Shown piece after piece: positions 8,452 through 45,641 of a stretch of DNA of 64,000 bases. Location of the stretch: the NCBI GenBank assembly GCA_963795855.1, contig CAWCIZ010000004.1, forward strand, positions 128,001-192,000, written 5' to 3'. Each line of letters opens with the position of its first letter. Position 1 is the stretch's first letter. The stretch comes from Vulcanimicrobiota bacterium. Lineage in GTDB: Bacteria > Vulcanimicrobiota > Vulcanimicrobiia > Vulcanimicrobiales > Vulcanimicrobiaceae. Below the pieces are notes generated by a model. It did not search any database, was not told the DNA's origin, and was given only the letters and a program-made list of their open reading frames with translations. The position numbers were made by a program, and so were the translations under genes.

Positions 8452-9061
8452 GTGTTCATTTCTTTCGAAGGCATCGAAGGCAGCGGCAAGTCCACGGTCA
8501 TGACGGCGGTCGAGCGCGCGCTGCTCGCCGACGGTCACGAGGTCGTTCTCGCCCGCGAGCCCGGCGGTACGCCGGCGGGCGATGCGGTGCGCGCGATCTT
8601 TTTGCAGCCGGGCATCGCGCTGAATCCCGAGACGGAGATGCTGCTGATCAATTCGTCGCGCGCGCAGACTCGTGGGCGACGTCGTTCGACCGGCCCTTCG
8701 GCGCGGCGCGGTCGTGCTGTGCGACCGGTACGTGCATTCGACGCTCGCGTATCAGGGTTACGGCCGCGGACTCCCGCTCGATCTCGTGCGGTCGGTGTGC
8801 GATGCTGCGACCGGCGGCCTCATGCCCGAACTCACGCTGCTCGTCGACGTTTCGTACGAAACCTCGCGCGCTCGTCTTGCGGCGCGCGGCGACGGCCACG
8901 ACCGCGTCGAGCAGGAAGAAGAAGCGTTTCACCGCCGCGTGCGCGACGGCTACTTGGAGCTCGCCCGGCGCGACGAACGTTTCGTGCGCATCGACGGCGA
9001 GCGTGCGCCGGAACAGGTTGCCGATGCCGCATTAGCGGCGCTATCGGCCGTCATCGCATGA
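8452..9061 (+). CDS. tmk: Thymidylate kinase; apparent +1 frameshift at 8668
   Basis: FEGIEGSGKST and REPGGT in one frame, LCDRY...AYQGYGRG in another; removing A8668 restores RAQLVGDVVRPAL. Confidence 0.92.
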
Positions 9062-10071
9062 GCGATCTGCATTTCGACGTGGTCGGAGCGGAAGGACCGA
9101 AGCAGTTCTTTTCACGCCTGACCAAAGAGACCATCGCGCACGGCTACCTCTTCACCGGAACGGGCGGAGCCGGCAAGAAAACGTTCGCGCGCCGCCTCGC
9201 GCAATCGCTGCTGTGCCAGGCGCCGCACCCGGCCGGCATTCTCGGTTACGACGGTACGTGTACTTCCTGCAAACTCATCGGCAAGACCGAAACGCGGCAT
9301 CCGGATTTGCTCGAAAGCGTCGGAGCGTTGAAAATCGGCGAAACGGATGAAGCGCTCGGTTTCCACGAAACCGAAGCGATTACGTCGCGGGATTTGGTGC
9401 GCCAACTCTCACTGCAGTCGTACAGCGGAGGCTTTCGCGTTTTCATCTTGGGCGACGTCGATTTCGCCTCGCCGGCCGCCGCGAACGCGCTGCTGAAGTT
9501 CTTCGAAGAACCGCCCGCGAGCGTCGTGCTTCTCGTGACCTCGTCGACTCCGGCGCGGCTGCTTTCGACGATTCGCTCGCGTCTCATCGAGATTCGTTTT
9601 CCCTCGCTTTCCGCCGCACAAGTAGAAGCGATCCTGCGCGAGCACGGCTTCGGCGAAGAGCGCGCGAAACTCGGCGCAGGGTTGTCGCAAGGCTCGGCCA
9701 CGCGCGCGATGGATGCGCTGGCGGAAGAGGAAGAGCATTTGCGAGGTCAGGTCGCCGCTTGGTTCTTCGAAGTGGTCGGCGGGACGACGCCGGAAGGTAC
9801 GTGGGCGACGCGCGAAACGTTGGACGAAGGACTCGAGATCCTAAAAACGCTGCTGCGGGATTGGGTCGCCCTGACGAGTGCCGGACGCAACGCGCGTATT
9901 CTCGCGCTCGACTACGACGCGGACCTTCAGAAGTTGCCGAAAATCGATTCACAGAGCGCGATTGCGGCGTTTGCGAAACTCACGGAAGCGCAGCGTCTGG
10001 CGCGCACCAACGTGAGTCCGGCGCTCGTCGCCGATTTCGTGCGTATGGCGCTGACCGGGACGGCCGCTTAA
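9058..10071 (+). CDS. holB: DNA polymerase III delta' subunit
   Basis: HGYLFTG..GAGK, HPD, AANALLKFFEEPP, TIRSR; follows tmk with ATGA overlap. Confidence 0.88.
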   Translation: MSDLHFDVVGAEGPKQFFSRLTKETIAHGYLFTGTGGAGKKTFARRLAQSLLCQAPHPAGILGYDGTCTSCKLIGKTETRHPDLLESVGALKIGETDEALGFHETEAITSRDLVRQLSLQSYSGGFRVFILGDVDFASPAAANALLKFFEEPPASVVLLVTSSTPARLLSTIRSRLIEIRFPSLSAAQVEAILREHGFGEERAKLGAGLSQGSATRAMDALAEEEEHLRGQVAAWFFEVVGGTTPEGTWATRETLDEGLEILKTLLRDWVALTSAGRNARILALDYDADLQKLPKIDSQSAIAAFAKLTEAQRLARTNVSPALVADFVRMALTGTAA

Positions 10072-10072
10072 C

Positions 10073-10774
10073 TTACCAAAATCGAAAGGCGAGATCGGCG
10101 TACTGGCGCGCGACGATCAGTGCGATGTATCCGAGCGCCACCGCCGTTAGCAGCACCTGCGCCGCATCGAATCCCACCCCCATGTATCCGCCGATCGCGT
10201 TCAGCGCGAAAACGGTAAGCCCGCGCCAGACGACGTACGAGACGATCGTGAGGATCGCCGTTGCGAGCGGATGGCGACGCGCGGCCTGCACGGACGCGGA
10301 GAAGACGCCGCCCGCGGGAATGCCGCCGATCGCGGCCGCGGGGATCGCGTAGATGAACGCCCACACCGCCAAGACGGTGAGCGCGAGCGAAACGTACGGG
10401 CCGCCGATGTTTCCAATCAATCCCGCGACGTAAATCAAGAAATAGAAACCGATGATCGCGAGCAGGATGTTACCAGCCTTCGCTTTACCTTGCTCCCATG
10501 CCGCGGGCAAGTTTCCGCGTCCATGGCGCCACGCGTCGTCGGCGAAGATGACGGCAAGCGCAAAGCCGAATCCGTAAACCAGCTGGATGACGAAGTTGAT
10601 TATCGGATCGCCTGCGCCGCCGATCGGATTGAACAGGGGAGCTTCGAGGTAACTCAAGCCGAGTCCGATGACCGCCGCGATGATCGGATAAAACAGTACG
10701 CCGGCGTTGCGCACGTACAGCGGCAACGCCTCGAAGTACAGTTTCCAATCCAGTCCGCTCGTCGGGCGGCGCAT
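10073..10774 (-). CDS. Hypothetical integral membrane protein (about 6 TM)
   Basis: Long hydrophobic segments; coupled downstream of mtnP. Confidence 0.7.
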   Translation of the reverse strand: MRRPTSGLDWKLYFEALPLYVRNAGVLFYPIIAAVIGLGLSYLEAPLFNPIGGAGDPIINFVIQLVYGFGFALAVIFADDAWRHGRGNLPAAWEQGKAKAGNILLAIIGFYFLIYVAGLIGNIGGPYVSLALTVLAVWAFIYAIPAAAIGGIPAGGVFSASVQAARRHPLATAILTIVSYVVWRGLTVFALNAIGGYMGVGFDAAQVLLTAVALGYIALIVARQYADLAFRFW

Positions 10775-10775
10775 C

Positions 10776-11582
10776 CTAGGCTCGTGCTCCTTGGAGCGCC
10801 GTCCGGCAAGTGCACTTCTGATCGACGTCGAGATGCTCGACGATTTTGAAGATGCCGTCCTTCACGCGCGCGTTGTTCTTGTTGAATACTTCGATGACTT
10901 CGTGATGCGAGACGGGCTGAATGCCCCCGACCCCCTCGAGGCCTACGTCGTAATCGGTTATCAGCGAGATGTTCACATAGCACATCTCCAGCTCGCGCGC
11001 CAGATACGCCTCGGGATATTGGGTCATGTTGATGACTTCCCATCCCATCGAAGAAAACCATCGGGACTCCGAGCGCGTCGAGAACCGCGGTCCTTGGATC
11101 ACCACGACTGTGCCGCGATCGTGCGTTTCGATGCCTAGCGCTCGCAGCTGTTCGAGGGCGACCGGGCGCATCGTCGGACAGTACGGATCGGCAAAGCTGA
11201 CGTGCGTGGTTATCGGTCCGTCGTAGAACGTGTCTTTTCGGCCGGACGTGCGGTCCACGATCTGATCCGCGACCACCATCGAGCCCGGCTTGAATTCGGG
11301 CGTGAGCGAACCGCAGGCGGTCGGCGCGATGATGCGCTTGACGCCCAGGGACTTCATCGCCCACAGGTTTGCGCGATAATTAATGGCGTGCGGCGGGTAG
11401 CGATGGTCTTTTGCGTGACGCGGCAGAAACGCGACGCGTTTTCCGGCGATTTCGCCGAGTGCCAATTTATCGCTGGGTGCGCCGTACGGCGTTTCGATCG
11501 GGACTTCCCGGGCGTTCTCGATGAGCGAATAGAACCCCGAACCGCCAAAAACGCCGATGTCGGCGCGCTCTTCTGTCTCCAT
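10776..11582 (-). CDS. mtnP: S-methyl-5'-thioadenosine phosphorylase
   Basis: IGVFGGSG, TPYGAPS, FLPRH, GPRFSTRSES, NMT, ITDYD motifs. Confidence 0.9.
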   Translation of the reverse strand: METEERADIGVFGGSGFYSLIENAREVPIETPYGAPSDKLALGEIAGKRVAFLPRHAKDHRYPPHAINYRANLWAMKSLGVKRIIAPTACGSLTPEFKPGSMVVADQIVDRTSGRKDTFYDGPITTHVSFADPYCPTMRPVALEQLRALGIETHDRGTVVVIQGPRFSTRSESRWFSSMGWEVINMTQYPEAYLARELEMCYVNISLITDYDVGLEGVGGIQPVSHHEVIEVFNKNNARVKDGIFKIVEHLDVDQKCTCRTALQGARA

Positions 11583-11626
11583 AAGGGGCGCTGGATTCTG
11601 GGAAAAGGCCGCCACCCCTCGAAGCA

Positions 11627-13261
11627 ATGCCTATGCTCAGGCGATTCGCCGGCGGCGTGCTCGCCGCAACCCTGCTCTTCACCGGATGCAGCCGCGTAGC
11701 GCAAAGCCCCGCACCGAACGGCCGGCATGCGTTCAGCGTGCCGCACGTTCTGCGAATCGCCGACATTTCGGATCCGGACAATCTAAACGAGTATCTGTCG
11801 ACGATGGATTTGGTGTATTTCCTCTCGTCCATGATCTACTCGTACCTCGTCGTTGCGGACGATCGGGGGCAACTCGAAGGCGATCTCGCGCTCGAGGTGC
11901 CGACGCTTGCAAACGGCGGCATTTCGCGCGACGGCAAGACGTACGTCTACCATTTGCGCCGGAACGTCCGCTGGCACGACGGCGCGCCGCTGACGTCCGC
12001 CGACGTGCGCTTTTCATGGCAAGCTGTCGTCAATCCGAACAACAACACGCTGCATCGCGAAGGCTACACGGAAATCGCCTCAATCGATACGCCGGATCCC
12101 TACACGGTCGTCGTACATTTGCGGCGCCGTTACCCACCGTTCGTGTCCAAATTTTTCACGCCGCTTCAGGAAGGCGGCAAGCCGATTCTGCCCGCGCACC
12201 TCCTGGCAAAATACCGCTCGATAAATCAAGTGCCGTTCAACTCCGCGCCGATCGGAAGCGGCCCGTTCCGGTTCGTGCGGTGGGAGCGTGGACGCAAGAT
12301 AGTTCTGGAACGGAATACCGCCTACTACAGAGGCGTTCCGAAGCTCGAGCGTATAGAATTGAACGTCATCCCGGAAGATCAAACGATTTTCAACGAAGTA
12401 AGACTGCATCATCTAGACCTCGTCGATTCGCCGCCCGTAACGATGTACGATAAATACCGCTCGCTGCAGGATGTCACGACGCAGCTGTACCCGTGGAACT
12501 CGCAGGCGTTGCTTATTATGAACGAAAGTCACCCCGGCTTGGACGACGTTCGCGTGCGGCGCGCCCTGGTACAGTCGATCGACTACGGCGCAATCATACA
12601 AAAACTCACGCACGGTTCGGGGGAACCGGCGTACGACATCATTCCGCCGACCGCGGTCGGTTACGTGAAAAATCCGCCGTACCAGTACGATCCAACTGCG
12701 GCCAATGCGACCCTCGAGCAAGCGGGCTACAAGATGGAGCCGGACGGCGTGCGCGCCAAGGGCAAGGTTCGGCTGGATTACACACTCGACATCATCGCCG
12801 GATCGGATTCGCTGCGGATGGTTGCGGTGCAACTGCAGGAGTATTTTCACGCAATCGGCGTCCGCCTTTCGATTAAGACCTGGGCGTACGACGAGATCTT
12901 CACGCCGGACGGCCCAATCTACGGCAACCGCTACGATTTCGCGACGTACGGCGTGACGCTCTCGTGGGATCCGGACATGCTGTATTATATCGGTTGCGAC
13001 TACTTCTATCCCAAGGGTGAAAACACGTACCGGTATTGCAATCGCCAAGTCGACGCGTTGGAGAAAGCGGGACTGGACACGGACGATCCGGCAAGCCGCG
13101 CGCGCGTCTATTTGCGAGCGGAGCCGCTGCTCTGGCAAACGGTTCCTTATATTCCGCTCTACGAGCGGCGCCGCATCGCGGTTCACTCTCCCGACCTGCG
13201 CAACTTCAAGGTGAATCCCAGCAGCACGCCGTGGTACAACATTTGGCAGTGGGACATTTGA
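11627..13261 (+). CDS. Peptide/nickel ABC transporter substrate-binding lipoprotein (family 5)
   Basis: Lipobox FTGC; LRRNVRWHDGAPLTSADVRFS family-5 signature; PIGSGPF. Confidence 0.88.
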   Translation: MPMLRRFAGGVLAATLLFTGCSRVAQSPAPNGRHAFSVPHVLRIADISDPDNLNEYLSTMDLVYFLSSMIYSYLVVADDRGQLEGDLALEVPTLANGGISRDGKTYVYHLRRNVRWHDGAPLTSADVRFSWQAVVNPNNNTLHREGYTEIASIDTPDPYTVVVHLRRRYPPFVSKFFTPLQEGGKPILPAHLLAKYRSINQVPFNSAPIGSGPFRFVRWERGRKIVLERNTAYYRGVPKLERIELNVIPEDQTIFNEVRLHHLDLVDSPPVTMYDKYRSLQDVTTQLYPWNSQALLIMNESHPGLDDVRVRRALVQSIDYGAIIQKLTHGSGEPAYDIIPPTAVGYVKNPPYQYDPTAANATLEQAGYKMEPDGVRAKGKVRLDYTLDIIAGSDSLRMVAVQLQEYFHAIGVRLSIKTWAYDEIFTPDGPIYGNRYDFATYGVTLSWDPDMLYYIGCDYFYPKGENTYRYCNRQVDALEKAGLDTDDPASRARVYLRAEPLLWQTVPYIPLYERRRIAVHSPDLRNFKVNPSSTPWYNIWQWDI

Positions 13262-14817
13262 ACGCGGCGGACCTCGACGTTTTGATCGTCGGCGCGGGCC
13301 CGGCCGGTCTGGCGACGGCGGCGGAGGCCGCCAGATTCGGCCTGAGATATCGCCTTATCGACAAAGCGTCGCACGGCGCGCAGCATTCCCAGGCGCTCGT
13401 CGTGCAAGCAAGAACGCTCGAACAATTCGAACGCTACGAAATCGCGCAGCGCGCCATCGAGCGCGGCAGACGGCTGCACCGCATCCGCATGTACAGCGAC
13501 GGGAAGCGGATGCTCGAGGCCTCCTTCGATGAAATCCCCGGCAGCTATCCGTTCGTACTGTTTTTGCCGCAGACGCAGACGGAGCAGCTGCTGACCGAAC
13601 ACTTAGAAGCCCAGGGCGGCCGCATCGAACGCCAAACGGCGTTGACTTCGTTCGAAGACCGAGCAGACCACGTTGAATGCGAATTGGCGAGCGCGGACGG
13701 CACGACCGAACGCGTAACCTGCGCCTACCTCGTCGGCGCGGACGGCGCGCATAGCACGGTGCGGAGCATCCTCGGCATGCCGTTCGAAGGGCGCTCGGTC
13801 GACTTCGATTTCTTTTTGGGCGACTTGCGCGTGCAGGGCGACGTGCCGGCGGACGAACTGAGCGTCCATCTTCATGCGGGAAACCTCGTGTTTCTCGGGC
13901 GTATGGACGACACGCACTGCCGCTTCATCGTCGCGCTGCACGACGATCCGATGCAGCGTGAACCGGCCGTCGAAGATTTTCAAGCGGCCATCGATCTCTG
14001 CGGCATCGAAAATCTGCGCGTGAGCGATCCGCGGTGGATGGCCGCATTTCACGTGAGCGAGCGCAAGACGCCCGCATATTCGAAGGGACGCGTATTTCTC
14101 GCGGGTGACGCCACGAATATCCACTCGCCGGTCGGCGGGCAAGGAATGAACACCGGCATTCAGGACGCCGCCAATTTGATTTGGAAGATCGCACTGGTCG
14201 AATCGGGGCGGGCCCGCCCGGAACTTCTGGAGTCGTATGACGCCGAACGCAAACCGATCAGCGACGCGCTGATGAACACGACGGCGGCCGCGCTTCGGGC
14301 GGCGACTTCGTCGAACTGGCTGCTCGAACGCTTTCGGGACGCACTGCTTTCGCGTATTGCGACGTTCGATTCCGTTCAGGACCGTTTACGCGGCGCAGTG
14401 TCCGAGATAGGCATATCGTATCGGCGCAGTCCGATCGTGCGCGATTGCGGCGGAGGCGCCGCGCTCCGCGCGGGCGATCGCGCACCCGATTGCGAGGCGA
14501 CGGATGAAGCAGGCACGCATTTCCGTCTGTTCGATTTGCTCAAGGAACCGATCCATACCGTCATCGCGGCCAAACCGGAGCCGGGAGCCGACTTGCATCG
14601 TCTCGCCGCGCTGCTCGCTAAGTATCGCGACGTCATGCAAGGCAGCGTCCTCGTCGACGGCGACGCGGATTTTCAGCAGCAGTACGTGCACGGCGGCAGC
14701 ATGCTGTATGCGGTGAGGCCTGACGGCTATATCGGATTTCGCGGCACGTGCGCCGACGTTCCCGCTCTGGAGGAATGGGCCGGCGAATTGTTCGTCAAAC
14801 ACGAGCTGCGCTCGTGA
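13258..14817 (+). CDS. FAD-dependent monooxygenase (PheA/TfdB-like)
   Basis: GAGPAGL, GADGAHS, GRVFLAGDA, GGQGMNTGIQDA, C-terminal RPDGY. Confidence 0.88.
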   Translation: MNAADLDVLIVGAGPAGLATAAEAARFGLRYRLIDKASHGAQHSQALVVQARTLEQFERYEIAQRAIERGRRLHRIRMYSDGKRMLEASFDEIPGSYPFVLFLPQTQTEQLLTEHLEAQGGRIERQTALTSFEDRADHVECELASADGTTERVTCAYLVGADGAHSTVRSILGMPFEGRSVDFDFFLGDLRVQGDVPADELSVHLHAGNLVFLGRMDDTHCRFIVALHDDPMQREPAVEDFQAAIDLCGIENLRVSDPRWMAAFHVSERKTPAYSKGRVFLAGDATNIHSPVGGQGMNTGIQDAANLIWKIALVESGRARPELLESYDAERKPISDALMNTTAAALRAATSSNWLLERFRDALLSRIATFDSVQDRLRGAVSEIGISYRRSPIVRDCGGGAALRAGDRAPDCEATDEAGTHFRLFDLLKEPIHTVIAAKPEPGADLHRLAALLAKYRDVMQGSVLVDGDADFQQQYVHGGSMLYAVRPDGYIGFRGTCADVPALEEWAGELFVKHELRS

Positions 14818-15281: not shown

Positions 15282-15653
15282 AGCAGTTCGATCCGGTTGC
15301 CGAACGGATCGTGCACGAATGCGCGGATCGATCCGGACGCGTCATCCGTTTGGTACGCGATGCCGGCATGGCGCAAGCGGTCGAGCATCCCGGGCAAATC
15401 CGCGCAGCGCAACGCCGGATGTGCCTTGCGCGCCGGCCGAAAGTCGTCCTCGACGCCTAAGTGCAGCCGGACGTCGCCGGCCTCGAACCAGCAGCCGCCT
15501 CGCTTTGCGAGCCTGCGCAGGTTTCGGGACTTCGGTCATGCCGAGCACGCCGCAAAAGAACGCGCGCGCTTGCTCTTCACCGCCGGGCGGCATCGCGAGC
15601 TGAACGTGATCGATCGTGAGTAAGGCGGCTCGCGCACGGAGCCCGTCCTTCAA
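15278..15653 (-). CDS. Glyoxalase/VOC family protein; apparent +1 frameshift at about 15512
   Basis: IDHVQLAMP..EEQARAFF..VLGMTEVPKP, then in the shifted frame LAKRGGCWF...HLG...AHPA...DPFGNRIELL. Confidence 0.82.
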
Positions 15654-16123: not shown

Positions 16124-16237
16124 GTGAGTCCTATCCTACGCACTCCACCGCTAATCATGCCTGAGGCACCAGCCGGGCCTGCCGAGCCGCCGAGCCAGGG
16201 TGCGTCGCACCCGCAGCCGAACGGAGCGCGGTTCATC

Positions 16238-19032: not shown

Positions 19033-20624
19033 TTAAAAACCCGGCACGCGATATGGATCGTACGGATAGATCGTCGACACGTCGACGGGCGGAATCGTCA
19101 TACCGTATGCGGTGTCGGCTGTTTGTATGAAGAGATTGGCAACCAGTGCGTAGCCGACGGTCGAGGGATGCAGCCCGTCGAAGTCAGGATTCCGCCGCCC
19201 CAACGCAAGTCCGCAGTGTCGCCTTTCGAATCTACGGGGAAGACGTAGGGCGCAGTATTCGACTGCTGATACATCTGGTTGAAAGAAGCGTTGATCGGAA
19301 CGACGGGTGTCCCGGACGCTTGACCGACGGAATCGATGATTTGATTGTAACCCGCGTTCAGCTGCGCAACGCTTGCCGCGAACGAGTCCGTAAGATACGC
19401 GGGGCCCAAACCGCTCCCGGCGCCGCTCGGATCGAGTTGGCAGCTCGTGCCGGTGAAGTTGCCGCTCGTAACCAGGGTCAAGAGCGAGAAGAAGCCCGTT
19501 GCCGTGAGATAGCCGTTCGCGCCGACGCCGCATCCGGCAGGTTCCGGCTGCGCAAGCGCCGTCACGACGCCTTGCGCTTGCACCGGCGAAATCGCACCCT
19601 TCGAGAACGCCTGCAAGTAGTAGAAGACGCTCTGGCTCGGTGCCGGCTGCACGCCGCCCTGAAAGAAGCCGCCCGTTTCGAGCACGGTCGGAAGCTCCGC
19701 CACGATCACTTTCGACCCCGCGCCTTTGAGCTGCGCGACGATCGACGTCAAATCGGTTTGGAATTGCGCCGGCGTGTCGGTAATCGGCGAGCGCCCACCG
19801 CTTCCGGCGTACTTGAGCAAATCATTCGCTCCGAGCCACACCGTCGTGAGTTGCGGTTTCAGTGAAATCGCCACGCCGATTTGCGTGAGCGGCTGCACGG
19901 CTTTCGCGTATCCGCCGAGGACCGGATAAAAATTCGCGCTTTCCGAGTTCACGATCTCTTGCAGCGCGCCGGAGGTCGGATCGCCGGGTATTGCGGGATA
20001 TCCCGGGCATTGCAGGCCGCTAGGGGTGCTGACCGGTCCCGGCGGCGGACCGGTCAGCGGTGCCGTCATCGTTAGCGCTTCGTGCATCGTAATCCCCGGG
20101 ATGCCGAGATCGTAGACTTTGTTTGCAAGACTCGCGCGCACGCCGCCGAGCGTCGTAAGCGAATACGCCTGCTGATCGAACGTGTCGCAGTCCGGATGCG
20201 TCGTGAACAGCGTGCCGGTCGAACTGAGCAGCACTTGACCGCCGATGCCGGGCGACGCGATGAGAGGGAGCGGCGAGAGCGGTGCGTTGCCGAGCGCGGT
20301 ATCGACATTGTATTGCGCGGGATCGAGCGCGATGCCGTTTGCCTGCGCGAAGAAGAGAGCAAACCAGCCGTTCTCCTGCGTCGGCGGCACGAGGTTGCCC
20401 GGAAGCGGCGATAACGGATTTTGGCCCGGAGCGCCCATCGTCGTACCGGACTGTGTGCCGGCGGTCAGGCTGTCTCCGATGCCGACGATGTTCTGGGTGT
20501 ACGATCCGCCGGTCGTCGGCGGCGATGGCGTCAGCGATCCGCCGCTGTTCGTGTTGCCGCTGCCGCACGCGGTTACTGCGAGAATCGCCAGCGCCGCAAT
20601 CGCTCTATGAAAACGTTTAAGCAT
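19033..20624 (-). CDS. SGNH/GDSL hydrolase lipoprotein; apparent -1 frameshift at about 19183
   Basis: Lipobox VTAC, GIGDSLTAG (block I), WLGAND (block III); catalytic DGLHP (block V) lies in the shifted frame. Confidence 0.82.
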
Positions 20625-21970: not shown

Positions 21971-24900
21971 CTATACCGGAAGGGGCGGTTCCGCGATTTC
22001 GGCCGGGAGCGCATCGGTGGCGATGCGGCGCCTGCGCCGCCGAAGAGACCACGACTTCACGATCACATAGAGCACCGGCGTAATGGCGAGGTTCAATATC
22101 GTAGAGACGATCATGCCGCCGAACACCACGGTGCCCAGCGAGTGCCGCGCGGCGCTTCCTGCGCCGCCGGCAAACACGAGCGGCGTGACCGCGACGATGA
22201 ATGCGATCGAGGTCATGAGAATGGGCCGCAGACGCGTTTGAGCGGCTCGCGCGGCTGCCGTTACGACGTCCGCGCCGGCACGGATCTGCTGGTTTGCGAA
22301 CTCGACGATCAGAATCGCGCTCTTGCTTGCCAGGCCGATAAGCATGACGAAGCCGACTTGCGCGTACGCGTCGCTCGGCAGCCCGCGCACACCCAGAAAT
22401 GCCAGCGCGCCCAAGATCGCGACCGGCACGGCCAGCAGCACGATGAGCGGATCGACGAAACTCTCGTATTGAGCGGCGAGCACCAAAAAAACGAAGACGA
22501 TGCCGATGAAGAAGATCAGCGCGGAGAGCGATCCGCCTTCAATCTCGTCCAGCGTAAGCCCCGACCATTCGTACGTCACGCCCGGCGGGTCGATTTGATG
22601 CGCGAGCTGTTCCATCGCGGCGATCGACTGTCCCGAGCCCTTCCCCGGCGGCGTCTGCCCGTTGATTTCTATGGAGCGGAACAGGTTGTAATGCGTGATG
22701 ATAGGTGCCGACTTCGTCATTACCGCAGTCGCCAATCCGCTGAGCGGCACCATACCCCCGTTTTGGGACCGCACGTATAGAAACTGCAGTGCATCCAGAC
22801 TGCTGCGATACGGATCGTCCGCTTGAACGAAAACCTTGTACGAGCGGTTCAGATAGTCGAAATTGTTCACGTAGAACGAACCGAGATCCGTCTGCATCGT
22901 ATTGAAGACGTCAGTGAGCGAGACGCCGATGCTTTTTGCCTTCTCTCGGTCGATGTGTACCTGGTACTGCGGCGCGTCGATGCGGAACGTCGTGAATACT
23001 TGCGAAAGATTCGGGTTGCGGTTTCCCAGCCCCATGAAGCCGTAAGCCGTCTTCATCAACGCGGGAAATCCGACGTTTCCGGCGTCCTCGAGTTCGAATT
23101 GGAAACCGCCGAAATTGCCGACGCCTTGAATTGCGGGTGGATTGAATGCGAATATCTGCGCTTCGGGAATTCCGAAGAATTGCATCTGCACGCGCTGCAA
23201 AACGGCATTGAGCGAATGTTGCGCGCCCTTGCGCTGGGACCAGGGCCGAAGCCCGATGAAAGCGATACCGCGATTCGGCCCGCTGCCGGCAAAACTAAAG
23301 CCCGACACGTCGAAGTCGTGGAGAATTTCGGGCTGCGCGTCGAGAATGCGCTCGACCTTTGCCGCCACGGCCTGCTCTTGCGAGAGCGATGCGCCTTCGG
23401 GCAGCTGAATCGTCACGATGAAGAAGCCTTGGTCTTCATTCGGAATGAACGCGGTCGGCGTCGTACGGTACAGCAGGACCGTTGCAAGAAGTGCCGCGAT
23501 GAAGAGCATCCCGACGACGGCGCGGCGCCGGAAGAGCTTGGGCATCAGCCCGCGGTACCAGTTCCGGAATGAGGCAAGTCCGCGGTTGAACCACACGAAG
23601 AACGGGAAGCGCGATTCGGTTTCACCCGTGAGCATTAGCGCGGACATGACGGGCGTCAGCGTCAGCGATGCGAAAAGCGAGATCGCGATCGACGCGGCAA
23701 TCGTCAGCGCAAACTGCCGATAGAGTTGCCCCGTCGTCCCCGGGAAGAATGCGACCGGCACGAAAACGGCAAGCAGCACCAGCGACGAAGCGACGACGGC
23801 GCCTTGAACCTCGCGCATTGCCGCGCCGGCACCTTCCACGCCGCCCATCCGTTTTTCCTGAATGAAGCGCGCGATGTTTTCTATGACGACGATTGCGTCG
23901 TCCACCACGAGCCCCGTTGCCAGAGTCAATCCGAATAAGGTAATGGTGTTGATCGTGAAACCGAACACTTTCATCACTGCGAACGTGCCGATTAGGGAGA
24001 CGGGCAGCGTTACGGCGGGAATCAGCGTCGACCGCGGATTCTGCAAGAAGATGAAAATGACCAGAACGACGAGCAAAATCGAGAAGATCAAGGTCAAAAC
24101 GACTTCTCTAATCGACTCTTTGACGAACTGCGTTACGTCGAACGCGACGTCGTAGGAAACACCGGCCGGAAAGTTGCGCGAGAGAATTTCGAGTTCTTTC
24201 TTGACGCCGTCGGCGGCTTGAAGCGCGTTCGCCGTGGGCAACTGCTGAATGCCCAGACCGACGACGTTCTGGTTTCCGTCGAAGGCGATCGAACTCGAGT
24301 AATCTTCCGCTCCGAGCTCGACACGCGCGACGTCGCCCAAGCGCGTGAAACCGCCGCCCGACTCGGCGCGAACGATGATGCTGCGGAACTGCTCCGGCGT
24401 ACTCAAGCGGCCTTCCGCATGCACCGTGATGGTGAACGGCTGGTTTTTCCGCTCCGGTGCGCCGCCGATACTGCCGGCTGCAACCTCCACGTTTTGCTCT
24501 TGCAGCGAGTTTAGGACGTCGCTGATTGCCAGGCCGCGCGCTTCGAGTTCGTGCGGATCGACCCAGATGCGCATCGCGTAACGCCGCTGGCCGAAGATGA
24601 TGACGTTGCTGACGCCTTTTACGCGCTTGAGGGCGTTGACGACGTTCAGTTCCGCATAGTTGCTCAGAAACAGACTGATTGAACTGCGGATTGCTCGACT
24701 TGAGCGCGAGCGCCATAATAAACGTGCCGGAGTTTTTAGTGACCGTTACGCCCGTCTGCTTCACCTCGGCCGGTAACAGACCGGATGCGGACTGCACGGC
24801 GTTCTGGACGTCCGTGGCGGCAATGTCGAGATCGGTCCCGAGATTGAACGTGCACGTGATGGTGCTCGTGCCGTTGTTTGCGCTCGTGGATGTAATGTAA

Positions 24901-26147: not shown

Positions 26148-26824
26148 TCACGATGCCGGTTTGAGCCCACGCTTGCGGCGCCTGCTCAAACTCGATCTCA
26201 AACGCTTTCGACAGCGCGCGCTCGACGATCGGTTTCGTTTCTTCGACGCAAACGGCTCGCCCCGTTTCGCGCGAGAGGCTGGTGATGCCGCGATCCGTGA
26301 GCCCGCACGGATTGATGAGCCTGTCGTCAGCTCAACTCCGTGTTGACGTTCAGCGCTATACCGTGCAGCGACGTCATCTTTTGGACGGCGAGCCCAATAG
26401 CGCAAATCTGGTCGCGGCCGACCCAGACGCCGGCGTGTTCGCTCCACCGCTCGGCGTGCACGCCGAAATCCGCGCAAGCGTCGATGATCGCACCCTCGAG
26501 CGCGCGCACCAGCGGCACCACTTCGCGAAACCGCTCCAAACGCCGGATCGGATACACCACAAGTTGGCCGGGACCATGATACGTCACATCGCCGCCGCGC
26601 TCGATGCGTACGACGTCCACGCCGCGCACGGCGAGCGCTTCCGGTGAAAGCAGCAAATTCTCGGCTTTTGCGGTGCGGCCCAGCGTGATTACCGGCGGAT
26701 GCTCGACGAAGATCCAGGTTTCCGGCTCTTCACCGCCGCGCACGCGCGCATGCAGTGCATGCTGCAAGCCCCATACGTCGCGATACGAACGCAGGCCGAG
26801 ATCGAGAAGCCAGGCGCGGGTCAC
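26148..26824 (-). CDS. lipB: Octanoyltransferase; apparent +1 frameshift at about 26328
   Basis: EHPPVITLG, RGGDVTYHGPGQLVVYP, HGIALNV, then shifted frame YDRLINPCG. Confidence 0.92.
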
Positions 26825-37027: not shown

Positions 37028-37199
37028 CGTAATTTCCTCCTTTCGCACGAGCGTCGAGCGCTCTGAAAACTCCGAGCGTCGCACAGGCATAACGCCGGGC
37101 GACGCCCGTCTGTTTCGCTTGCTTGCCCGGCAGCCCTTTTAGTTTCGGTTAAGCGCCTTAATCGAGCGCGGCCGAAGCGCGCGCTCGCTCGAAACCCTG

Positions 37200-38363: not shown

Positions 38364-38454
38364 TGGCGTGTGGATCTCCTGATGAGCGGGGGTAGAGACG
38401 CGAAAACTTCGCGGGGCGGGACCCCGCGTCCCCGCTATAGCATTACCGGCTTCT

Positions 38455-39213: not shown

Positions 39214-39300
39214 TGCGGCGTCCGCGGCCCCGCCGACGGCGGACATTCCTGTTGCGCGTGTGCCGAACGGCGGCGCGAAGGCTAGACCGCAGCGCCTTAA
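39214..39300 (+). repeat. Dispersed CTAG-loop hairpin element, copy 2 (between scoA and scoB)
   Basis: GGCGCGAAGGCTAGACCGCAGCGCC at 39272-39296; adjacent CGTGTGCCGAACGGC matches 45701-45715 (reverse complement) at 14/15. Confidence 0.7.
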
Positions 39301-39321
39301 AAACCAAAGGGGTTTCCTAGG

Positions 39322-39990
39322 ATGGCGATTTCGCGAACACAACTCGCCGCACGCGTTGCTCAGGAGTTGCGCAACGGACAATACGTTAATCTGGGCATCG
39401 GCTTACCAACGCTGATTCCGAATTATCTTCCCGCGGGCGTTACCGTCGTGCTGCAAAGTGAAAACGGCATTTTGGGCATGGGGCCGTATCCGTTTGAAGG
39501 CGAGGAAGACGCGGATCTCATCAACGCCGGCAAGGAAACCGTCACCGTTCTGCCGGGCGCATCGTTTTTCGATTCATCGCTTTCGTTCGGGATGATCCGC
39601 GGCGGACACATCGACGTCGCGGTGCTGGGCGCCATGCAGGTCTCCGAGAAGGGCGACCTGTCGAATTGGATGATTCCCGGCAAAATGGTCAAAGGAATGG
39701 GCGGAGCGATGGATCTTGTGCATGGAGCCAAGTATTTGATCGTGATGATGGAGCACGTCGCAAAAGGCGGTGCGCACAAGATCGTCAAGGAATGCGATCT
39801 CCCCTACACGGGCCGCGCCGTCGTGAATCGCATCATCACCGATCTCGCGACGATCGACGTTACCCCGCAAGGATTAGTGCTTCGCGAACTCGCCCCCGGC
39901 GTGAGCGTCGATGAGGTGCGCGAGGCAACCGGCGCGCCGCTGCATGTGCCCGAAGAACCGAAAACGATGCGGATCGATGGATCCGCTTGA
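39322..39990 (+). CDS. scoB: 3-oxoacid CoA-transferase subunit B
   Basis: [14 protein letters not shown] catalytic Glu, [17 protein letters not shown]. Confidence 0.93.
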
Positions 39991-40417
39991 CCTCATCGTC
40001 GCGCCTCCACGGTCGCCGCGCGTTCGGCTCGCCGGATTGCTCATGCTCGCAAGAACCGTGGACAAGGCGCGCGCCCAGCTTCACGGCGGAAAACCCGGTC
40101 GCTACTACATAACGCCGGGGCTCAGCGAATGGCTGCTTCGAAAATTGCGGTTCTCGGAAGCGGAATTCGTCGATCTGGTCGCTCACGCAACGGACGAGAC
40201 GCAAATCGTCGCAGAAGTGCAGGAGCGCTGCTCGCCCGAACGCATCGCGCATCTCAACCAATACATGGAATCGTTCACCGTCGCTGCGGTTCCGGAGCAC
40301 ATGCGGGAACGGTTTTTTGAAGACCAGGGCGAGGCGCCGGCAGCGGAACTAGTGATCGACGCGATCGAACGCGACGATCGTCACATGGCTTCCGCGCGCG
40401 CAAACCCGGTGCCCTGA
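39977..40417 (+). CDS. DUF5069-like protein
   Basis: DL...[20 protein letters not shown]...G..G.Y N-terminal signature. Confidence 0.65.
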
Positions 40418-41961
40418 CCGGCAATGCGCGCGGCCGCAAAGGCCACGAGCAGCAGCGTTTCTACGAGCGAGCAGAAGATGCCCGCCGCGATCGATCCGCC
40501 CATCGTGCGCAGCACGACGAGGGTCATGACTGCGGCAATCAACGGCGGAGCGGCGAACAGATACGTAATCAGCGCGCGCACGAACGCAAGCGGTCCGCGC
40601 TGATCGATCGTTGAAGGGAAGAGCGCATACAACGCAAGTCCGACCGCGCGAAGATACAGCACGAGCGCGATTGCAATCGGAATGCCCGCGGCAGCGACGG
40701 CACCCGCGTGCAGCGCGAGCGCCCACGAGCCGATGCCGATTCCCAAGCACGCCGCAAGGCGCCACGACGTGCCGGCGATCCAAGCGAAAAGCCGCAGCCA
40801 AAGCGGATCGCGGCCCATCCACCACAGGGGTTTGGAAATATCTGAAGAGAGCGCTACCGCGGAGCCCATTGCGACGAAAATCACGATCATATTTCCGGCC
40901 ATCGCTGCGAACGCCGCCGTCTCGCCCAGTTTGTCCGCCGATCCGGCGATGACTCGCCCGAAAAGCGCGCCGACTGCCGCGCACGCCAACAAACCGAAGT
41001 AAAACATGCGTTGCATCGACGGCGAACGCACGAAGGCAATCCACTCTTTCCAAACGATCGTCCACGGACCGCGAAATACGTCGAAGATTGGATGCGCGCC
41101 CGACGCTGCGTGCTGCCGATAACTGTGCTCGATCGAAAGCACTGCCGCGCCGCGGCGCCGATCCCGAAACTCCAGCACACGGAGCGAAGAGGCGTAGAGA
41201 TCTGGGTAAAGTCCCGCGCCGCAAAAATAGGCAAGCACGATAGCCAGCGCGGCCGCGCAATACAAGGCAGCGATCGCCGCGAAGTGCCCGTCGAACAGCG
41301 CGGTGAAGGCGAATCCCGCCCCGATGTGTTCGAGCCGATGCGCCCAGAGCCGATCCGTCGAGTCTGCGGGCAGACTTGCGAATAGCACGGACATCGGCAG
41401 AATTCCAACCGCCGCCACTGCGCCCGCAAGGCTTTGCGCGGTTCGGATGCCGGTAATCCGCCGAAGCTTGAGCATCGGAATCGCCGTTGCCGTCGCAATT
41501 ATGGTTCCACCGATCATCGCGAGGCCTATTCCGGCGAACGTTCCGGATCGAGAGAACACGAGAGCGTAAAGCAGCAGGGTGAAGAAGAGACGCGCAATTG
41601 CGGATCCGGAGCGGCGCAGTTGCAGCCACATGACGACCAGCCGCTGCGATATCAGCGAGCCGGTGAGAAAGCGCGCATCCGAAGCGGATGAAAACGCGCC
41701 GACGATTCCCGACGCTGCACCGTACATCATGATCCCGAGCAGCGTAATGTACGCGAAAAACAGACCGCTCGCGTATGGCTCCGGTATGGCGAAAACCGGC
41801 AGCGCGTGATGAGCGCGCGAGCGCAGCACCGTGGCGACTACGAAGTATCCCACCGCAAGCAGGTAAAGCACCATACGGCTGGGCCGGCGCAGCGCTTCTC
41901 GAATCCGGTTGACGATCTGCCGGGACTCGAGATACGCCAGCGCGGAAAGGTCGGCGATCAT
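40381..41961 (-). CDS. Putative ABC exporter permease (multi-TM)
   Basis: About 12 hydrophobic segments; start overlaps the ABC ATPase stop. Confidence 0.75.
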   Translation of the reverse strand: MIADLSALAYLESRQIVNRIREALRRPSRMVLYLLAVGYFVVATVLRSRAHHALPVFAIPEPYASGLFFAYITLLGIMMYGAASGIVGAFSSASDARFLTGSLISQRLVVMWLQLRRSGSAIARLFFTLLLYALVFSRSGTFAGIGLAMIGGTIIATATAIPMLKLRRITGIRTAQSLAGAVAAVGILPMSVLFASLPADSTDRLWAHRLEHIGAGFAFTALFDGHFAAIAALYCAAALAIVLAYFCGAGLYPDLYASSLRVLEFRDRRRGAAVLSIEHSYRQHAASGAHPIFDVFRGPWTIVWKEWIAFVRSPSMQRMFYFGLLACAAVGALFGRVIAGSADKLGETAAFAAMAGNMIVIFVAMGSAVALSSDISKPLWWMGRDPLWLRLFAWIAGTSWRLAACLGIGIGSWALALHAGAVAAAGIPIAIALVLYLRAVGLALYALFPSTIDQRGPLAFVRALITYLFAAPPLIAAVMTLVVLRTMGGSIAAGIFCSLVETLLLVAFAAARIAGQGTGFARAEAM

Positions 41962-42669
41962 CGCGTCAATTCGAGGAAGAGGTCTTCGGCGTTTGAGTGC
42001 GTTCCGGCACGCTCCTGCAGTTCTTCAAACGTCCCCGCGGCGATCGTGCGTCCGTTTTTCAAGATCACGACCCGATCGCAAACGACCTGCGCCTGCTCCA
42101 GCATGTGCGTGCTGATGACCACCGCTTTACCGCCGGCGCGCAGGTTGCGGATGATTTCGCGCAGACTCGCGTTGGCCAAGCGGATCGAGCCCAATCATCG
42201 GCTCGTCGAATAGAATGACCGGCGTCGCGGACAGAACCGTGGCCGCAACGAGGGTTTTCTGGCGCATGCCTTTCGAAAGCGAAGCGCCCAGCGTGTCGCG
42301 CTGATCGCTCATGCCGAAACCGCGAAGCAGTTCTTCCGCGCGCGTTTGCCAGCCGTCTTCCAGGCGGCAACTTTTCGCCACGAACACCATATGCTCCCAA
42401 ACGGTAAGCATCGGATAGACGTCCGGCGTCTCGGGAATCAGCGCAATGGTGCGACCTCTGCTCGAGCCGAGCTCGCGCCCATCCCAGGCGAACGTACCCC
42501 GATCTGCGCGCAAAAGGCCGGCGGCACACATGAACGTCGTACTCTTCCCGGCGCCGTTCGGGCCCAGCAGCCCGACGATCTCGCCGCCGCGCACCTCGAA
42601 CGAAACGTCTTCGACGGCGTTTTTATTTCCGAAGCGTTTGCTCAGGCCGCTCACTCGCAGGACGGGCAT
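41958..42669 (-). CDS. ABC transporter ATP-binding protein; apparent +1 frameshift at 42165
   Basis: GPNGAGKST, LSKGMRQK, FDEPMIGLDP; removing A42165 gives GQRELREII...ISTH. Confidence 0.9.
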
Positions 42670-43822
42670 AACCGCTAATCCCAGCGGCTCGCGCTTGTTC
42701 CCTGCGCATGATCCGAATGAATACGAAAGGCGCGGCAATCAGCGGGGCGGCGGCGCAAGCGGAAATGGCCGCCGCGTAAGACAGGCCGAATCTGGTAAGC
42801 AACGCCGCCAGCAGCGCTCCGCTCGAGGTTCCGATCGCGAAGGAAAGATTGTAAGCGCCCATGGCGGCGCCGCGCGTTCCGGGCGTGCTTTGCTCGAAGA
42901 ACAGCCCCACGCCCACGGGCACGACCGCGGACCACGCGATGCCGAGCAGTGCGCCCGCAAGCAGCACGCTTGCAGTCGTATGCGCCGAAGCTGCAACTAG
43001 GCATCCCGCGACTTGCGCAACCGCGACCGGCACCGTCATGAAGCGCGGGCCGTACTGTTCCACAAAACGTCCTGCGGGATAGCGAAACGCCGCAGTTACG
43101 ATCGCCATCGAGGTAAAGATGAGCGCGCCGTTGACGATGCCGCGCTGCGTGAACGTCACGACCGCAAGCGCGGTATTCACTCCGCTCTGCATTGCAGCGG
43201 CGCTGAGAAACGCGAGCGCGGGCAGCCACGCGGAACGCATCAGAATCAGGCGCGACCGGCGCTGCGGACGCGCATCGCGCTTCTGCGGCAAGAACCAAAG
43301 CACGATGCCGCCTGCAAGCGTAAGCGCAGCGCCGTATGCAAACTGCCCGCGCCCGATTCCGGAGTTCCACAGCCAAACGCCGACCGCAGGCGCGAACGCG
43401 AAAACGAGATTCGCGATCATGCCGAGCGTCGATACCGCCGAGACCGACCGGTCTTGTGGCACGATTTCCGAAACGTACGCAAATTCCGCCGTTACGTAAC
43501 TCATCATCGAAAAGCCGCGCAGTCCCATCAGCACTCCGCCCCATGCAGGCCCGCGCAAAAACGCCATTCCGAAGGTTGAAAGCGCCATCAGCAGCACCGA
43601 CGCGCGAATCGTTTTCAAACGTCCGATGCGATCGACGACCGCGCCGACCGGCACGCTGCCGAGGAGTTGAGCGAACAGTCCGCCGCCCATCGCGAACGCG
43701 ACCTCGCTGCGCGTTGCACCCTCATGCAGCAGCGCGAGCGGCAGCGCGCCGATCGGCAAGTTACATGCGAATTCGCTCAGGAGCGTCGAGAAGATGAGGA
43801 AGTAAAAAGCGCGTTGCTTCAT
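42623..43822 (-). CDS. MFS transporter
   Basis: GAVVDRIGRL MFS motif A; about 12 TM. Confidence 0.85.
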   Translation of the reverse strand: MKQRAFYFLIFSTLLSEFACNLPIGALPLALLHEGATRSEVAFAMGGGLFAQLLGSVPVGAVVDRIGRLKTIRASVLLMALSTFGMAFLRGPAWGGVLMGLRGFSMMSYVTAEFAYVSEIVPQDRSVSAVSTLGMIANLVFAFAPAVGVWLWNSGIGRGQFAYGAALTLAGGIVLWFLPQKRDARPQRRSRLILMRSAWLPALAFLSAAAMQSGVNTALAVVTFTQRGIVNGALIFTSMAIVTAAFRYPAGRFVEQYGPRFMTVPVAVAQVAGCLVAASAHTTASVLLAGALLGIAWSAVVPVGVGLFFEQSTPGTRGAAMGAYNLSFAIGTSSGALLAALLTRFGLSYAAAISACAAAPLIAAPFVFIRIMRREQARAAGISGYARPASERPEQTLRK

Positions 43823-45641
43823 TCAGGACGACGCGATAGTTCGCGATTCGTCCCGGAATTGCTTGCGATACAAGCGCGCGTATTCTCCGCTGCGGGCCAG
43901 GAGCACGGCATGAGTGCCGCGTTCGACTATGCGACCGCGATCGACTACGAAGATGACGTCCGCCGATAAAATCGTCGAGAGGCGGTGCGCGATTGCAAGC
44001 GTCGTTCGCCCGCGCATAAGCGGAACGAGCGCCGCTTGTATGGCCGCTTCGTTGTGCGAGTCCAGCGCGCTGGTGGCTTCGTCGAGAATGAGAATTTTCG
44101 GATTCTTGAGCAGCACTCGCGCAATCGCCAAGCGTTGGCGTTCGCCGCCGGAAAGTTTGTGACCGCGCTCGCCCACGACCGTGTCGTAACCGGCCGGCAA
44201 CGACGTGATGAAATCGTCGATGTTCGCCGCGCGAGCCGCGGCGCGCAGCTCCTCCTGCGTTGCGTCCGGCTTGGCGTAGCGCAAATTCGAAGTCTACGGT
44301 GTCGTGAAAGAGATACGTTTCCTGCGTTACGATGCCGACGCCTCGCCGCAGCGATTCGAGCGTGAGCGTGCGCACGTCGTAGCCGTCAATGAGCACGCGC
44401 CCGTCATTCGGGTCGTAAAACCGCGGAACGAACTGCGTAATCGTCGTCTTTCCGCCGCCCGACGGTCCGACGAACGCGGCCACCTGACCCGGTTGGATGT
44501 GCAAATCGATTCCGTCGAGGACGGTGCGTTCGCTCGAATAGCCGAACGTCACGTTATCGAAGCGAATCTCGCCGTGTACTTCCGAAAGCGTTACCGCAGC
44601 CTGCGGTTCGTACTCCTCGGGCGCCATGTCGAGGTAATCGAAGATGCGTTCGAAGACGGCGAGCGCGCTCACGATCTGCACTTGGATGCCGGCGAGCGAT
44701 GCGGCCGGGCCGTACAGCCGCTGCTGAATGTATTGCACGAACGCGACCACGACGCCGATTGCGATCGAGCGGCTCAAGGCAAGCCAGCCGCCGCCGAGCC
44801 AAACGATGGCGGGACCGATGATCACCATCGCCGTGATCGCCGCGATGAACCACCGGCCGACCATGGCGAGGCGGACTTCCAGCTCCATCAGTTCCGTGCC
44901 GGCTTTGAAGAAGCGCGCTTTTTCGTACGCCTCACGCGCGAACGACTTGATCAGCGTAATGCCGGATATCGAAAGCGTCTCTTGCGTTATCGACTCGATC
45001 TCGTCGCGCTTCTCGCGCGTTCTGCGGCGGATTTCGTACATGCGCCGCCCGACCGGCGAGAGCGGCAACACCATCAGCGGCACGATGGCTATGGAGAGCA
45101 GCGCCAGGCGCCAATTCCAAAAGAACATCCACACGACGGTCGTCAGAATCGTCACGAAATTGGTAAGCAGGGTGGTGAACGTGCCCGTGACGACGTTGTC
45201 GATGTTGTCGACGTCGTTCGAAACGCGGTTCATGATCTCGCCGGTCTTCGTGCCGGTGAAGAACTTGAGCGGCATTCGATGCAGATGCGAGACGAGGCTC
45301 GTTCGCATGTCACGCATGATGCCTTCGCCGACGATGGAGTTCAAATAACCTTGTGCGACCGTGAGCAGCATCGTGACCAGTGCGGCTGCGAGCATGCCGC
45401 CCACGTCGATTGCGACTTCCCGAAAATTCCCGTGCGGAATCGCTTTGTCGATGATGTGTGCGATGAAATATGCCGGCGCCAAACCGACGAGCGCCGACAC
45501 CACGATGCAAAACAGCACCAAACTCTGCTGCCGCCAATATGGCGAAAACAGCGCGCCGATGCGCCGCCAATCCACGCGTTTGCGGACTTTCGGTTTGTCG
45601 GGGCTGTACATGTTGGACCACATGAGGTGGCCGCCTGACAT
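43823..45641 (-). CDS. ABC exporter, fused permease/ATPase; apparent +1 frameshift at 44293
   Basis: TM domain, GPSGGGKTT, then shifted frame [29 protein letters not shown]; start uncertain (45644/45641/45623). Confidence 0.9.

What the first reader, a model, noticed from the sequence alone, without database searches (positions are those of the whole stretch)
8660..44300. All seven frameshifts in the window fall on AGCT: footprint of a sequence-specific DNA modification
Seen in sequence: seven intact-looking genes are each broken by one 1-nt indel, and the repair that restores the conserved protein recreates or abuts AGCT in every case (+ strand shown). tmk CAG[A]CTC at 8668; VOC GAG[C]CTG at about 15512; GDSL AAG[-C]TCA at 19183; RND CAG[A]CTG at 24674; lipB GT[C]AGCTC at 26328; ABC ATPase CAG[A]CTC at 42165; ABC exporter AAG[T]CTA at 44293. 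Five are insertions at the AG^CT centre. Flanks vary, so the motif is the 4-mer. AGCT is expected very roughly once per 300 bp at this composition, so 7/7 is not chance. Established: modified bases cause motif-specific nanopore basecalling errors, and AGCT is the AluI-type methylation target. Inference: the genes, including normally essential tmk, are intact in vivo. The organism would then carry a modification system encoded outside this window that marks AGCT (m4C, m5C or a less common adduct). A less likely alternative is scars of blunt AG^CT cleavage repaired with a non-templated base, in vivo or during library preparation. Caveats: the GDSL repair could equally be a homopolymer deletion, and many AGCT sites here read normally.
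Basis: partly seen in the sequence, partly recalled or inferred. Interest (0 to 1): 0.8.

Follow-up and report, generated by a model that had tools for sequence, protein, structure and literature searches.

The report
AGCT methylation fakes gene frameshifts
The seven broken genes are very probably intact in the living cell: they look like sequencing errors left where this soil bacterium appears to methylate the DNA word AGCT, most likely with an enzyme of a family characterised in archaea, so the errors betray its methylation pattern.

Summary
All seven 1-nt indels are in the sequence, each at or beside AGCT (chance about 3e-11). The link holds outside the window: 45 of 175 well-placed insertion frameshifts sit at AG-N-CT, against 3.3 expected. 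It is not universal: 53 of 90 isolated insertions are AGCT-type, but only 6 of 99 in dense error clusters, the chance level. Artefact is strongly favoured. tmk and rpoB are hit. A second few-contig assembly of the genus shows the same signature (28 of 53); fragmented kin carrying the same enzyme show none. Two other genera share an identical CAG[A]CT insertion in rpoB. The likely cause lies outside the window: an orphan beta-class methyltransferase (G000:C3:115533-116486), 55-59% identical to the Methanomicrobiales/Methanohalophilus family whose distribution matches the published AGCT m4C group HG16. Reads, raw signal and the sequencing platform were unavailable, so m4C and the enzyme are inferred. 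AGCT is also truly avoided in this genus. Verdict: a known artefact class that reveals a new bacterial member of a known methyltransferase group.

The parts
8666..8670 (+). tmk: extra A at AG^CT (CAG[A]CTC, base 8668); probable basecalling error
   Evidence: gap against 7 relatives; thymidylate kinase profile split 1-66 / 72-183
15510..15514 (-). VOC/glyoxalase-like gene (label recalled): extra base at AG^CT (+ strand GAG[C]CTG, about 15512)
   Evidence: gap against 4 relatives; frame switch in translation; no Pfam family for the ORFs tried
19182..19185 (-). GDSL lipase-like gene: one base missing inside AGCT (+ strand AAG-TCA)
   Evidence: 4 of 5 relatives read AGCT here; found by the reference-free caller; Lipase_GDSL_2
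24672..24676 (-). RND (AcrB-family) transporter gene: extra base at AG^CT (+ strand CAG[A]CTG, 24674)
   Evidence: gap against 7 relatives; ACR_tran split
26328..26332 (-). lipB: extra base abutting an intact AGCT (+ strand GT[C]AGCTC)
   Evidence: gap against 8 relatives; LplA-B_cat ends at the break
42163..42167 (-). ABC ATPase gene: extra base at AG^CT (+ strand CAG[A]CTC, 42165)
   Evidence: gap against G002; ABC_tran
44291..44295 (-). ABC exporter gene: extra base at AG^CT (+ strand AAG[T]CTA, 44293)
   Evidence: gap against G005 and G002; ABC_tran split 1-75 / 79-137

Best explanation
The indels are consensus errors of a long-read assembly made from native DNA. The organism (family Vulcanimicrobiaceae/Baltobacteraceae by the names of its close homologues) methylates AGCT, most likely at N4 of the cytosine, with an orphan beta-class methyltransferase at G000:C3:115533-116486 (P0001). 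The modified base shifts the pore signal; in some contexts, chiefly CAG^CT, the caller adds a base (mostly A on that strand), and a few percent of AGCT sites keep the error in the consensus. The genes are intact in vivo. Shown: the indels, their AGCT enrichment, their context bias, their absence from fragmented kin, the enzyme's presence, synteny and homology. Inferred: nanopore as platform, m4C as the base, P0001 as the enzyme.
For: AGCT is the top 4-mer at frameshifts by alignment (23 of 72 insertions vs 3.3 expected, 6 of the 23 being window sites) and reference-free outside the window (45 of 175 vs 3.3). Isolated insertions 53 of 90 vs 6% null. Essential genes hit: tmk and rpoB, one of whose two frameshifts is at AGCT. 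G005 (2 contigs): 28 of 53 vs 2.7. Five fragmented kin of the genus: 5 calls in 443 kb, none AGCT-type; three of them (G001, G002, G004) were checked and carry the orthologue at 84-87%. G165 and G017 share one CAG[A]CT insertion at the same rpoB site. Context bias: 44 of 61 A/T insertions read CAG[A]CT vs 37.5% C-flank among intact sites; CAG[A]CTC 15 vs CAG[T]CTC 1. P0001 is 55-59% identical over about 310 aa to Methanohalophilus, Methanospirillum, Methanoculleus and Methanoregula proteins. That distribution matches HG16 (AGCT, m4C), the only homologous group listed for M. mahii, whose M.Mma5219II is AGCT m4C (PMC10609329; PMC11033074). The other two methyltransferases fit worse: a Dam-like enzyme with the E. 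coli Dam GATC-reading segment (its role is recalled) and a C5 enzyme not shared with G005, G012 or G017.
Against: No reads or raw signal (one search listed no run); platform unknown. The characterised REBASE proteins were not compared directly, only genus-mates. P0001 has DPPY, a motif I recall as more typical of m6A enzymes, though the six archaeal homologues checked have it too. Published modification errors that I read are mainly substitutions (PMC10687267 Results, PMC11610603 passages), whereas G000 shows no substitution excess at AGCT (289 vs 294). The Dam-like gene co-occurs with P0001 in 4 of 5 signature genomes tested, so distribution alone does not separate them. Genomes without P0001 have too few frameshifts to be a real control (6 calls in 275 kb, 1 near an intact AGCT). 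Two carriers with few contigs (G114, G071) show no signature, and two more fragmented carriers (G104, G087) each gave one AGCT-tagged call. G000 is 86% complete.
Confidence: 0.8

Rival explanations
1. Artefact from a modification at AGCT, but by another base or enzyme: m6A or another adduct made by P0001, m5C by an AluI-like C5 enzyme, or a system missing from the assembly.
For: DPPY motif in P0001; a C5 methyltransferase exists in G000; strong real AGCT avoidance with AGCT/AACT exchange dominant, as deamination of m5C would give (recalled); errors are indels, unlike the published substitution pattern; genome 86% complete.
Against: No match to the C5 enzyme in G005, G012, G017, only weak ones in G165 and G013; PF00145 in 1 of 7 genus kin. 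No dndC, dpdA, pglX, Eco57I-type or type I methyltransferase found in G000. Homologues match an m4C group.
Confidence: 0.11
2. A basecaller or polisher weakness at CAGCT-like words that needs no modification.
For: Strong CAG[A]CT context bias; no adequate control among genomes lacking P0001.
Against: A fitting AGCT-type enzyme is present in every genome that shows the signature; the 9 frameshift calls in non-carriers (6, 3, possibly overlapping) include no central AG-N-CT; the genus avoids AGCT in all three codon frames, which points to biology at this word.
Confidence: 0.05
3. Real scars: an AluI-like nuclease cuts AG^CT bluntly in vivo and Ku/LigD end joining adds a base.
For: A Ku gene is present; central insertions are the commonest class (77 of 314 insertion calls).
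Against: About a hundred or more genes, tmk and rpoB among them, would be dead in the consensus; fragmented kin have none; identical insertion at one rpoB site in two genera; no nuclease beside the methyltransferase; strand and flank bias.
Confidence: 0.02
4. Library artefact: blunt cut at AG^CT, dA-tailing and religation leave an extra A or T.
For: 61 of 77 central insertions are A or T.
Against: Most molecules would have to rejoin their own partner to reach the consensus (inference); A and T should be equal on either strand, but CAG[A]CTC outnumbers CAG[T]CTC 15 to 1; abutting insertions, G/C insertions and deletions are not explained.
Confidence: 0.02

Closest known systems
HG16 orphan AGCT m4C methyltransferases of Methanomicrobiales and Methanohalophilus (M.Mma5219II, M.MhuIV, M.Msp273III); PMC10609329, PMC11033074
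   Same: Beta-class N6/N4 methyltransferase, orphan, conserved through a genus; 55-59% identity to proteins of the same archaeal genera; co-occurs with a Dam-like enzyme, as HG16 does with HG3; AGCT also depleted in the archaeal loci (O/E 0.70).
   Different: Bacterial host; own clade in the tree (support 100/97); fixed beside a histidine kinase and/or typA; the Dam-like partner sits next to a PD-(D/E)XK nuclease gene; activity not measured.
Modification-mediated nanopore consensus errors (Chiou et al. 2023, PMC10687267; Hammerhead, PMC11610603)
   Same: Errors at one short motif tied to a lineage's methyltransferase, surviving into the consensus.
   Different: Those reports describe mainly substitutions at GCAGC, GCTGG and other motifs; here 1-nt insertions dominate with no substitution excess; motif AGCT; inferred from the assembly alone, platform unknown.
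AluI restriction-modification system (AGCT, m5C, blunt AG^CT cut; recalled)
   Same: Same target word and same central position.
   Different: The shared enzyme is an amino-methyltransferase, not a C5 enzyme; no nuclease beside it.

Membership tests
HG16 / M.Mma5219II-type AGCT m4C methyltransferase | Beta-class amino-methyltransferase (catalytic motif before SAM-binding motif) | tested here: met
   PF01555 over residues 23-240; DPPY at 29, FMGGG at 210
HG16 / M.Mma5219II-type AGCT m4C methyltransferase | Close homology to the family found in Methanoculleus, Methanoregula, Methanospirillum and Methanohalophilus | tested here: met
   55-59% identity over 310-321 aa in 6 of 6 pairs run; these genera dominate the non-phylum hits among the best 80 of 589; cluster 357 = HG16 in both M. 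mahii and M. hungatei
HG16 / M.Mma5219II-type AGCT m4C methyltransferase | Direct similarity to an experimentally assigned enzyme | tested here: inconclusive
   M. mahii DSM 5219 and M. hungatei JF-1 sequences were not among the loci; only genus-mates and one M. hungatei MAG were compared
HG16 / M.Mma5219II-type AGCT m4C methyltransferase | Orphan: no adjacent restriction endonuclease | tested here: met
   neighbours in G000 and 8 related loci are histidine kinase, typA, SDR, sugar kinase, oxidoreductase, DUF4760 and two ORFs with no family
HG16 / M.Mma5219II-type AGCT m4C methyltransferase | Persistent (at least 75% of a taxon) | tested here: met
   genus level: PF01555 hit in 7 of 7 kin, orthology checked in 4 of 4, another genus 4 of 4; not at family level, 7 of 71 sampled
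HG16 / M.Mma5219II-type AGCT m4C methyltransferase | Methylates N4 of C in AGCT | not testable with these tools
   no signal data or assay; only the error footprint
Modification-mediated nanopore consensus error | Errors enriched at one short motif | tested here: met
Modification-mediated nanopore consensus error | Errors vanish in short reads or amplified DNA of the same sample | not testable with these tools
   no run listed; only fragmented kin as proxy, 0 AGCT-type of 5 calls
Modification-mediated nanopore consensus error | Assembly made from native-DNA nanopore reads | not testable with these tools
   platform not given; 6 large contigs and many 1-nt indels suggest long reads
Modification-mediated nanopore consensus error | Substitution excess at the motif, as in the published cases | tested here: not met
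   289 vs 294 reciprocal one-base differences at AGCT against fragmented kin; here the errors are indels
AluI-type R-M system | C5 methyltransferase shared by genomes with the signature, with adjacent blunt-cutting nuclease | tested here: not met
Phosphorothioate, deazaguanine, BREX or type I systems | dndC, dpdA, pglX, Eco57I-type or N6_Mtase gene | tested here: not met
   none found in G000, which is 86% complete; ssp genes not searched

The most novel reading that the evidence does not exclude
The AGCT(m4C) plus GATC(m6A) pairing that was proposed to have a shared epigenetic role in two archaeal lineages has been established a third time, in a soil bacterial clade, where the AGCT enzyme is vertically kept beside a histidine kinase and the genus has purged AGCT from its genes: a cross-domain regulatory methylation code, readable from the frameshift errors of public long-read assemblies without raw signal.
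Probability: 0.15. Interest if true: 0.65.

Novelty: new member of a known kind. Interest (0 to 1): 0.33.

Why it matters
First, it corrects annotation: on the order of a hundred or more apparent pseudogenes in this reference genome, tmk among them, are probably intact, and the same holds for other few-contig assemblies of the clade. Second, it assigns a probable methylation motif and enzyme to an uncultured soil lineage for which my searches found no methylome paper. Third, the frameshift footprint is a cheap way to screen public long-read genomes for methylation motifs when raw signal is not at hand. The artefact class itself is known, and the enzyme family is characterised in archaea.

Tried and rejected
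Substitution excess at AGCT: none. A second motif: after removing AGCT-type events no 4- or 5-mer stood out among 257 calls; GATC 40 vs 33.4 expected among 178 insertions, so the GATC signal is a by-product of GAG-N-CT. AGCT depletion as a marker of the enzyme: rejected, since carriers outside the genus and non-carriers have the same codon-pair odds ratios and a non-carrier, G096, has O/E 0.69. TGACA depletion: shared by all seven kin sampled, not followed. C5 enzyme as cause: not shared. Other modification systems: not found. PDB search gave only distant beta-class enzymes. The Atlas search of the C-terminal extension gave no usable hit. Supplement of PMC10609329: no text hit for AGCT or Mma5219; HG tables were usable. 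Earlier findings of the scan: none for this genome, motif or protein; one loosely similar note. Literature searches listed no paper on methylation in this lineage or on AGCT indel errors; the library lacks most subscription papers, and REBASE could not be queried.
Full report
Setting. The window is G000:C4:128001-192000 of a 3.06-Mb assembly in 6 contigs, 86% complete. Close homologues of its proteins are named Baltobacteraceae or Vulcanimicrobiota. The sequencing platform is not given. No claim below rests on the unpublished genomes G014 and G030.

The observation. Orthologous DNA of relatives shows a 1-nt gap at six and at the ABC ATPase site (one genome only). Pfam domains break at tmk, the RND gene and the ABC exporter. 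At the GDSL site 4 of 5 relatives read AGCT, so the missing base is the C. The chance that a random site spans or abuts AGCT is 0.031, about 3e-11 for seven. AGCT is rarer than stated: 124 in the window. A codon-model caller that uses no reference made 9 calls in the window, 5 gene junctions and 4 frameshifts, all among the seven. It found no eighth and missed three.

Genome-wide test by alignment. I aligned a sample of relatives (0.5 Mb of G005, 0.3 Mb of G002, 16-47 kb of five others) to G000. Of 115 unique frameshifting gaps assigned to G000, 90 were single gaps and were kept; 25 multi-gap clusters and 14 unassigned events were dropped. AGCT was the top 4-mer: 23 of 72 insertions vs 3.3 expected (6 of the 23 are window sites), and 11 of 18 deletions vs 4.1 under a looser rule. 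Isolated events were AGCT-type in 13 of 17, events with two or more neighbours in 12 of 54.

Genome-wide test without reference. Of 640 calls, 218 were flagged as gene junctions and dropped, leaving 314 insertions and 108 deletions. Among the 175 insertions that were tightly placed and outside the window, 45 had AG-N-CT within 8 nt, against 3.3 expected. By local density, window included, AGCT-type insertions were 53 of 90 (isolated), 37 of 66, 12 of 59 and 6 of 99 (dense), with a null of 6.0%; deletions 13 of 36, 5 of 20, 2 of 16 and 2 of 36. So there are two error classes: scattered AGCT-linked errors, and dense motif-free clusters. In all 130 of 422 calls are AGCT-type, about 105 above chance. 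With recall near 4 in 7 this suggests roughly 180 coding sites, a few percent of the 5240 intact AGCT; this is a rough estimate. No second motif remained after removing them. One prediction held: the nuclease gene next to the Dam-like gene looked truncated and proved to carry CAG[T]CTA.

Why an artefact. Essential genes are hit: tmk, and rpoB with two frameshifts, one at AGCT. G005, a 2-contig assembly of the same genus, has the same signature at its own sites: 28 of 53 insertions vs 2.7; 60 calls in 509 kb. Five fragmented assemblies of the genus gave 5 calls in 443 kb, none AGCT-type, though the three checked carry the methyltransferase. I take fragmented to mean short-read; that is an inference. 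G165 and G017, of two other genera, share the insertion CAG[A]CT at one rpoB position where G000 is normal. The inserted base is A or T in 61 of 77 central cases; written as A, 44 of 61 follow C, against 37.5% for intact sites, and CAG[A]CTC outnumbers CAG[T]CTC 15 to 1. A strand- and k-mer-dependent error is what a pore signal gives (inference); blunt-end repair or A-tailing would not be so biased. Against a clean story: six few-contig carriers of other genera gave only 6 AGCT-type among 17 calls, none in G114 and G071; G104 and G087 each gave one doubtful AGCT-tagged call; and non-carriers have too few frameshifts to act as a control.

The enzyme. G000 has three DNA methyltransferase genes by family search and no type I, Eco57I-type, BREX, dndC or dpdA gene. 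The C5 enzyme (with HNH-like and Vsr neighbours) has no match in G005, G012 or G017. The Dam-like enzyme resembles E. coli Dam and DpnM, lies beside a PD-(D/E)XK nuclease and is most simply a GATC enzyme (recalled role of the conserved segment). P0001, a 318-aa beta-class enzyme at C3:115533-116486, is 84-87% identical in 4 of 4 genus kin checked, present in 7 of 71 family genomes sampled and in none of the other families, and in G012 and G017, where the gene is itself frameshifted. It lies beside a histidine kinase and/or typA across genera, with no nuclease. Outside its phylum its nearest relatives among the best 80 of 589 hits are mostly Methanoculleus, Methanoregula, Methanospirillum, Methanofollis and Methanohalophilus, at 54-61%. 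In a 44-row tree the G000 clade has support 100/97, while its join with the archaeal group is unresolved. PMC10609329 lists HG16 (AGCT, m4C, orphan) in Methanoculleus and the Methanoregula/Methanospirillum group, while the GTAC and CTNAG groups are listed only for the latter. Its Table S3 puts M. mahii and M. hungatei in the same HG16 cluster and gives M. mahii no other group. M.Mma5219II and M.MhuIV are AGCT m4C enzymes (PMC11033074; PMC6329791). The family that spans these genera is therefore most likely HG16. The characterised proteins themselves were not compared.

Real avoidance of AGCT. AGCT is the most depleted 4-mer of G000 (O/E 0.59), and it is depleted in fragmented kin too (0.38-0.86). 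With amino acids held fixed, odds ratios are 0.33, 0.53 and 0.34 in G000 and 0.29-0.45 in fragmented kin, but 0.67-0.84 both in carriers of other genera and in non-carriers. So the purge is specific to the genus and does not simply track the gene; it is unexplained. The Dam-like gene accompanies P0001 in 6 of 7 family carriers and in 6 of 64 non-carriers (kin are not independent), which echoes the GATC plus AGCT pairing noted in archaea.

Comparison with known work. Modification-mediated consensus errors are established (PMC10687267; PMC11610603), there mainly as substitutions; here I found no substitution excess (289 vs 294). What I saw of each paper: PMC10609329 section 3.5, passages of Table 3 and supplement rows; PMC10687267 abstract and first part of Results; PMC11033074, PMC6329791, PMC8919816, PMC11610603, PMC12392509 and bioRxiv 10.64898/2026.06.24.734251 passages only (its supplements are closed and might list further bacterial AGCT enzymes; its text reports AGCT in Armatimonadota, so AGCT methylation in bacteria is not new); all others search listings only. 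AluI facts and the VOC label are recalled.

Verdict. Observation confirmed; interpretation supported and narrowed to m4C by an HG16-like orphan enzyme (0.8). The frameshifts are not biology; the methylation they point to probably is. New member of a known kind; interest 0.33.

Noticed in passing
G000 C1 about 250-300 kb and 650-700 kb; C3 74-80 kb, 200-250 kb, 1030-1034 kb; C2 677-684 kb; C6 131-134 kb: Dense clusters of motif-free frameshifts, mostly insertions (6 of 99 AGCT-type, the chance level); probably low-coverage or strain-mixed stretches.
   Followed up: partly
L037:1408-2709 (G000:C3 about 959.8-961.1 kb): Dam-like methyltransferase followed by a PDDEXK_11 nuclease gene, which is broken by a CAG[T]CTA insertion; the Dam-like gene co-occurs with P0001 in 6 of 7 family carriers vs 6 of 64 non-carriers.
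   Followed up: partly
genus-wide (G000-G007): AGCT is avoided in all three codon frames in this genus only, not in other carriers of the enzyme; about 70% of one-base differences at AGCT between kin are AGCT/AACT exchanges. Unexplained.
   Followed up: partly
P0001 residues about 258-318 (L024:1264-1450, - strand): C-terminal extension after the methyltransferase domain, conserved in many homologues, with a helix-turn-helix-like look (recalled); no Pfam or Atlas hit.
   Followed up: partly
L027:1468-3838 (G000:C3 about 855-857.5 kb): C5 methyltransferase, HNH-like ORF and Vsr gene; the methyltransferase has an internal TGA and its tail and the Vsr gene look frameshifted; not found in G005, G012 or G017, so probably a recent island.
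   Followed up: partly
L237 (G012), L238 (G017): The P0001 orthologue is itself frameshifted in both few-contig assemblies; the break sites could not be placed.
   Followed up: partly
L038:6473-7618 (G000:C3 about 112.5-113.6 kb): Weak phage-integrase match next to tRNA-Sec, about 2 kb from the methyltransferase gene.
   Followed up: no
genome-wide: TGACA/TGTCA is the most depleted 5-mer (O/E 0.49) and is depleted in all seven kin sampled.
   Followed up: no
G000:C3:294625-295122: Ku gene present.
   Followed up: no
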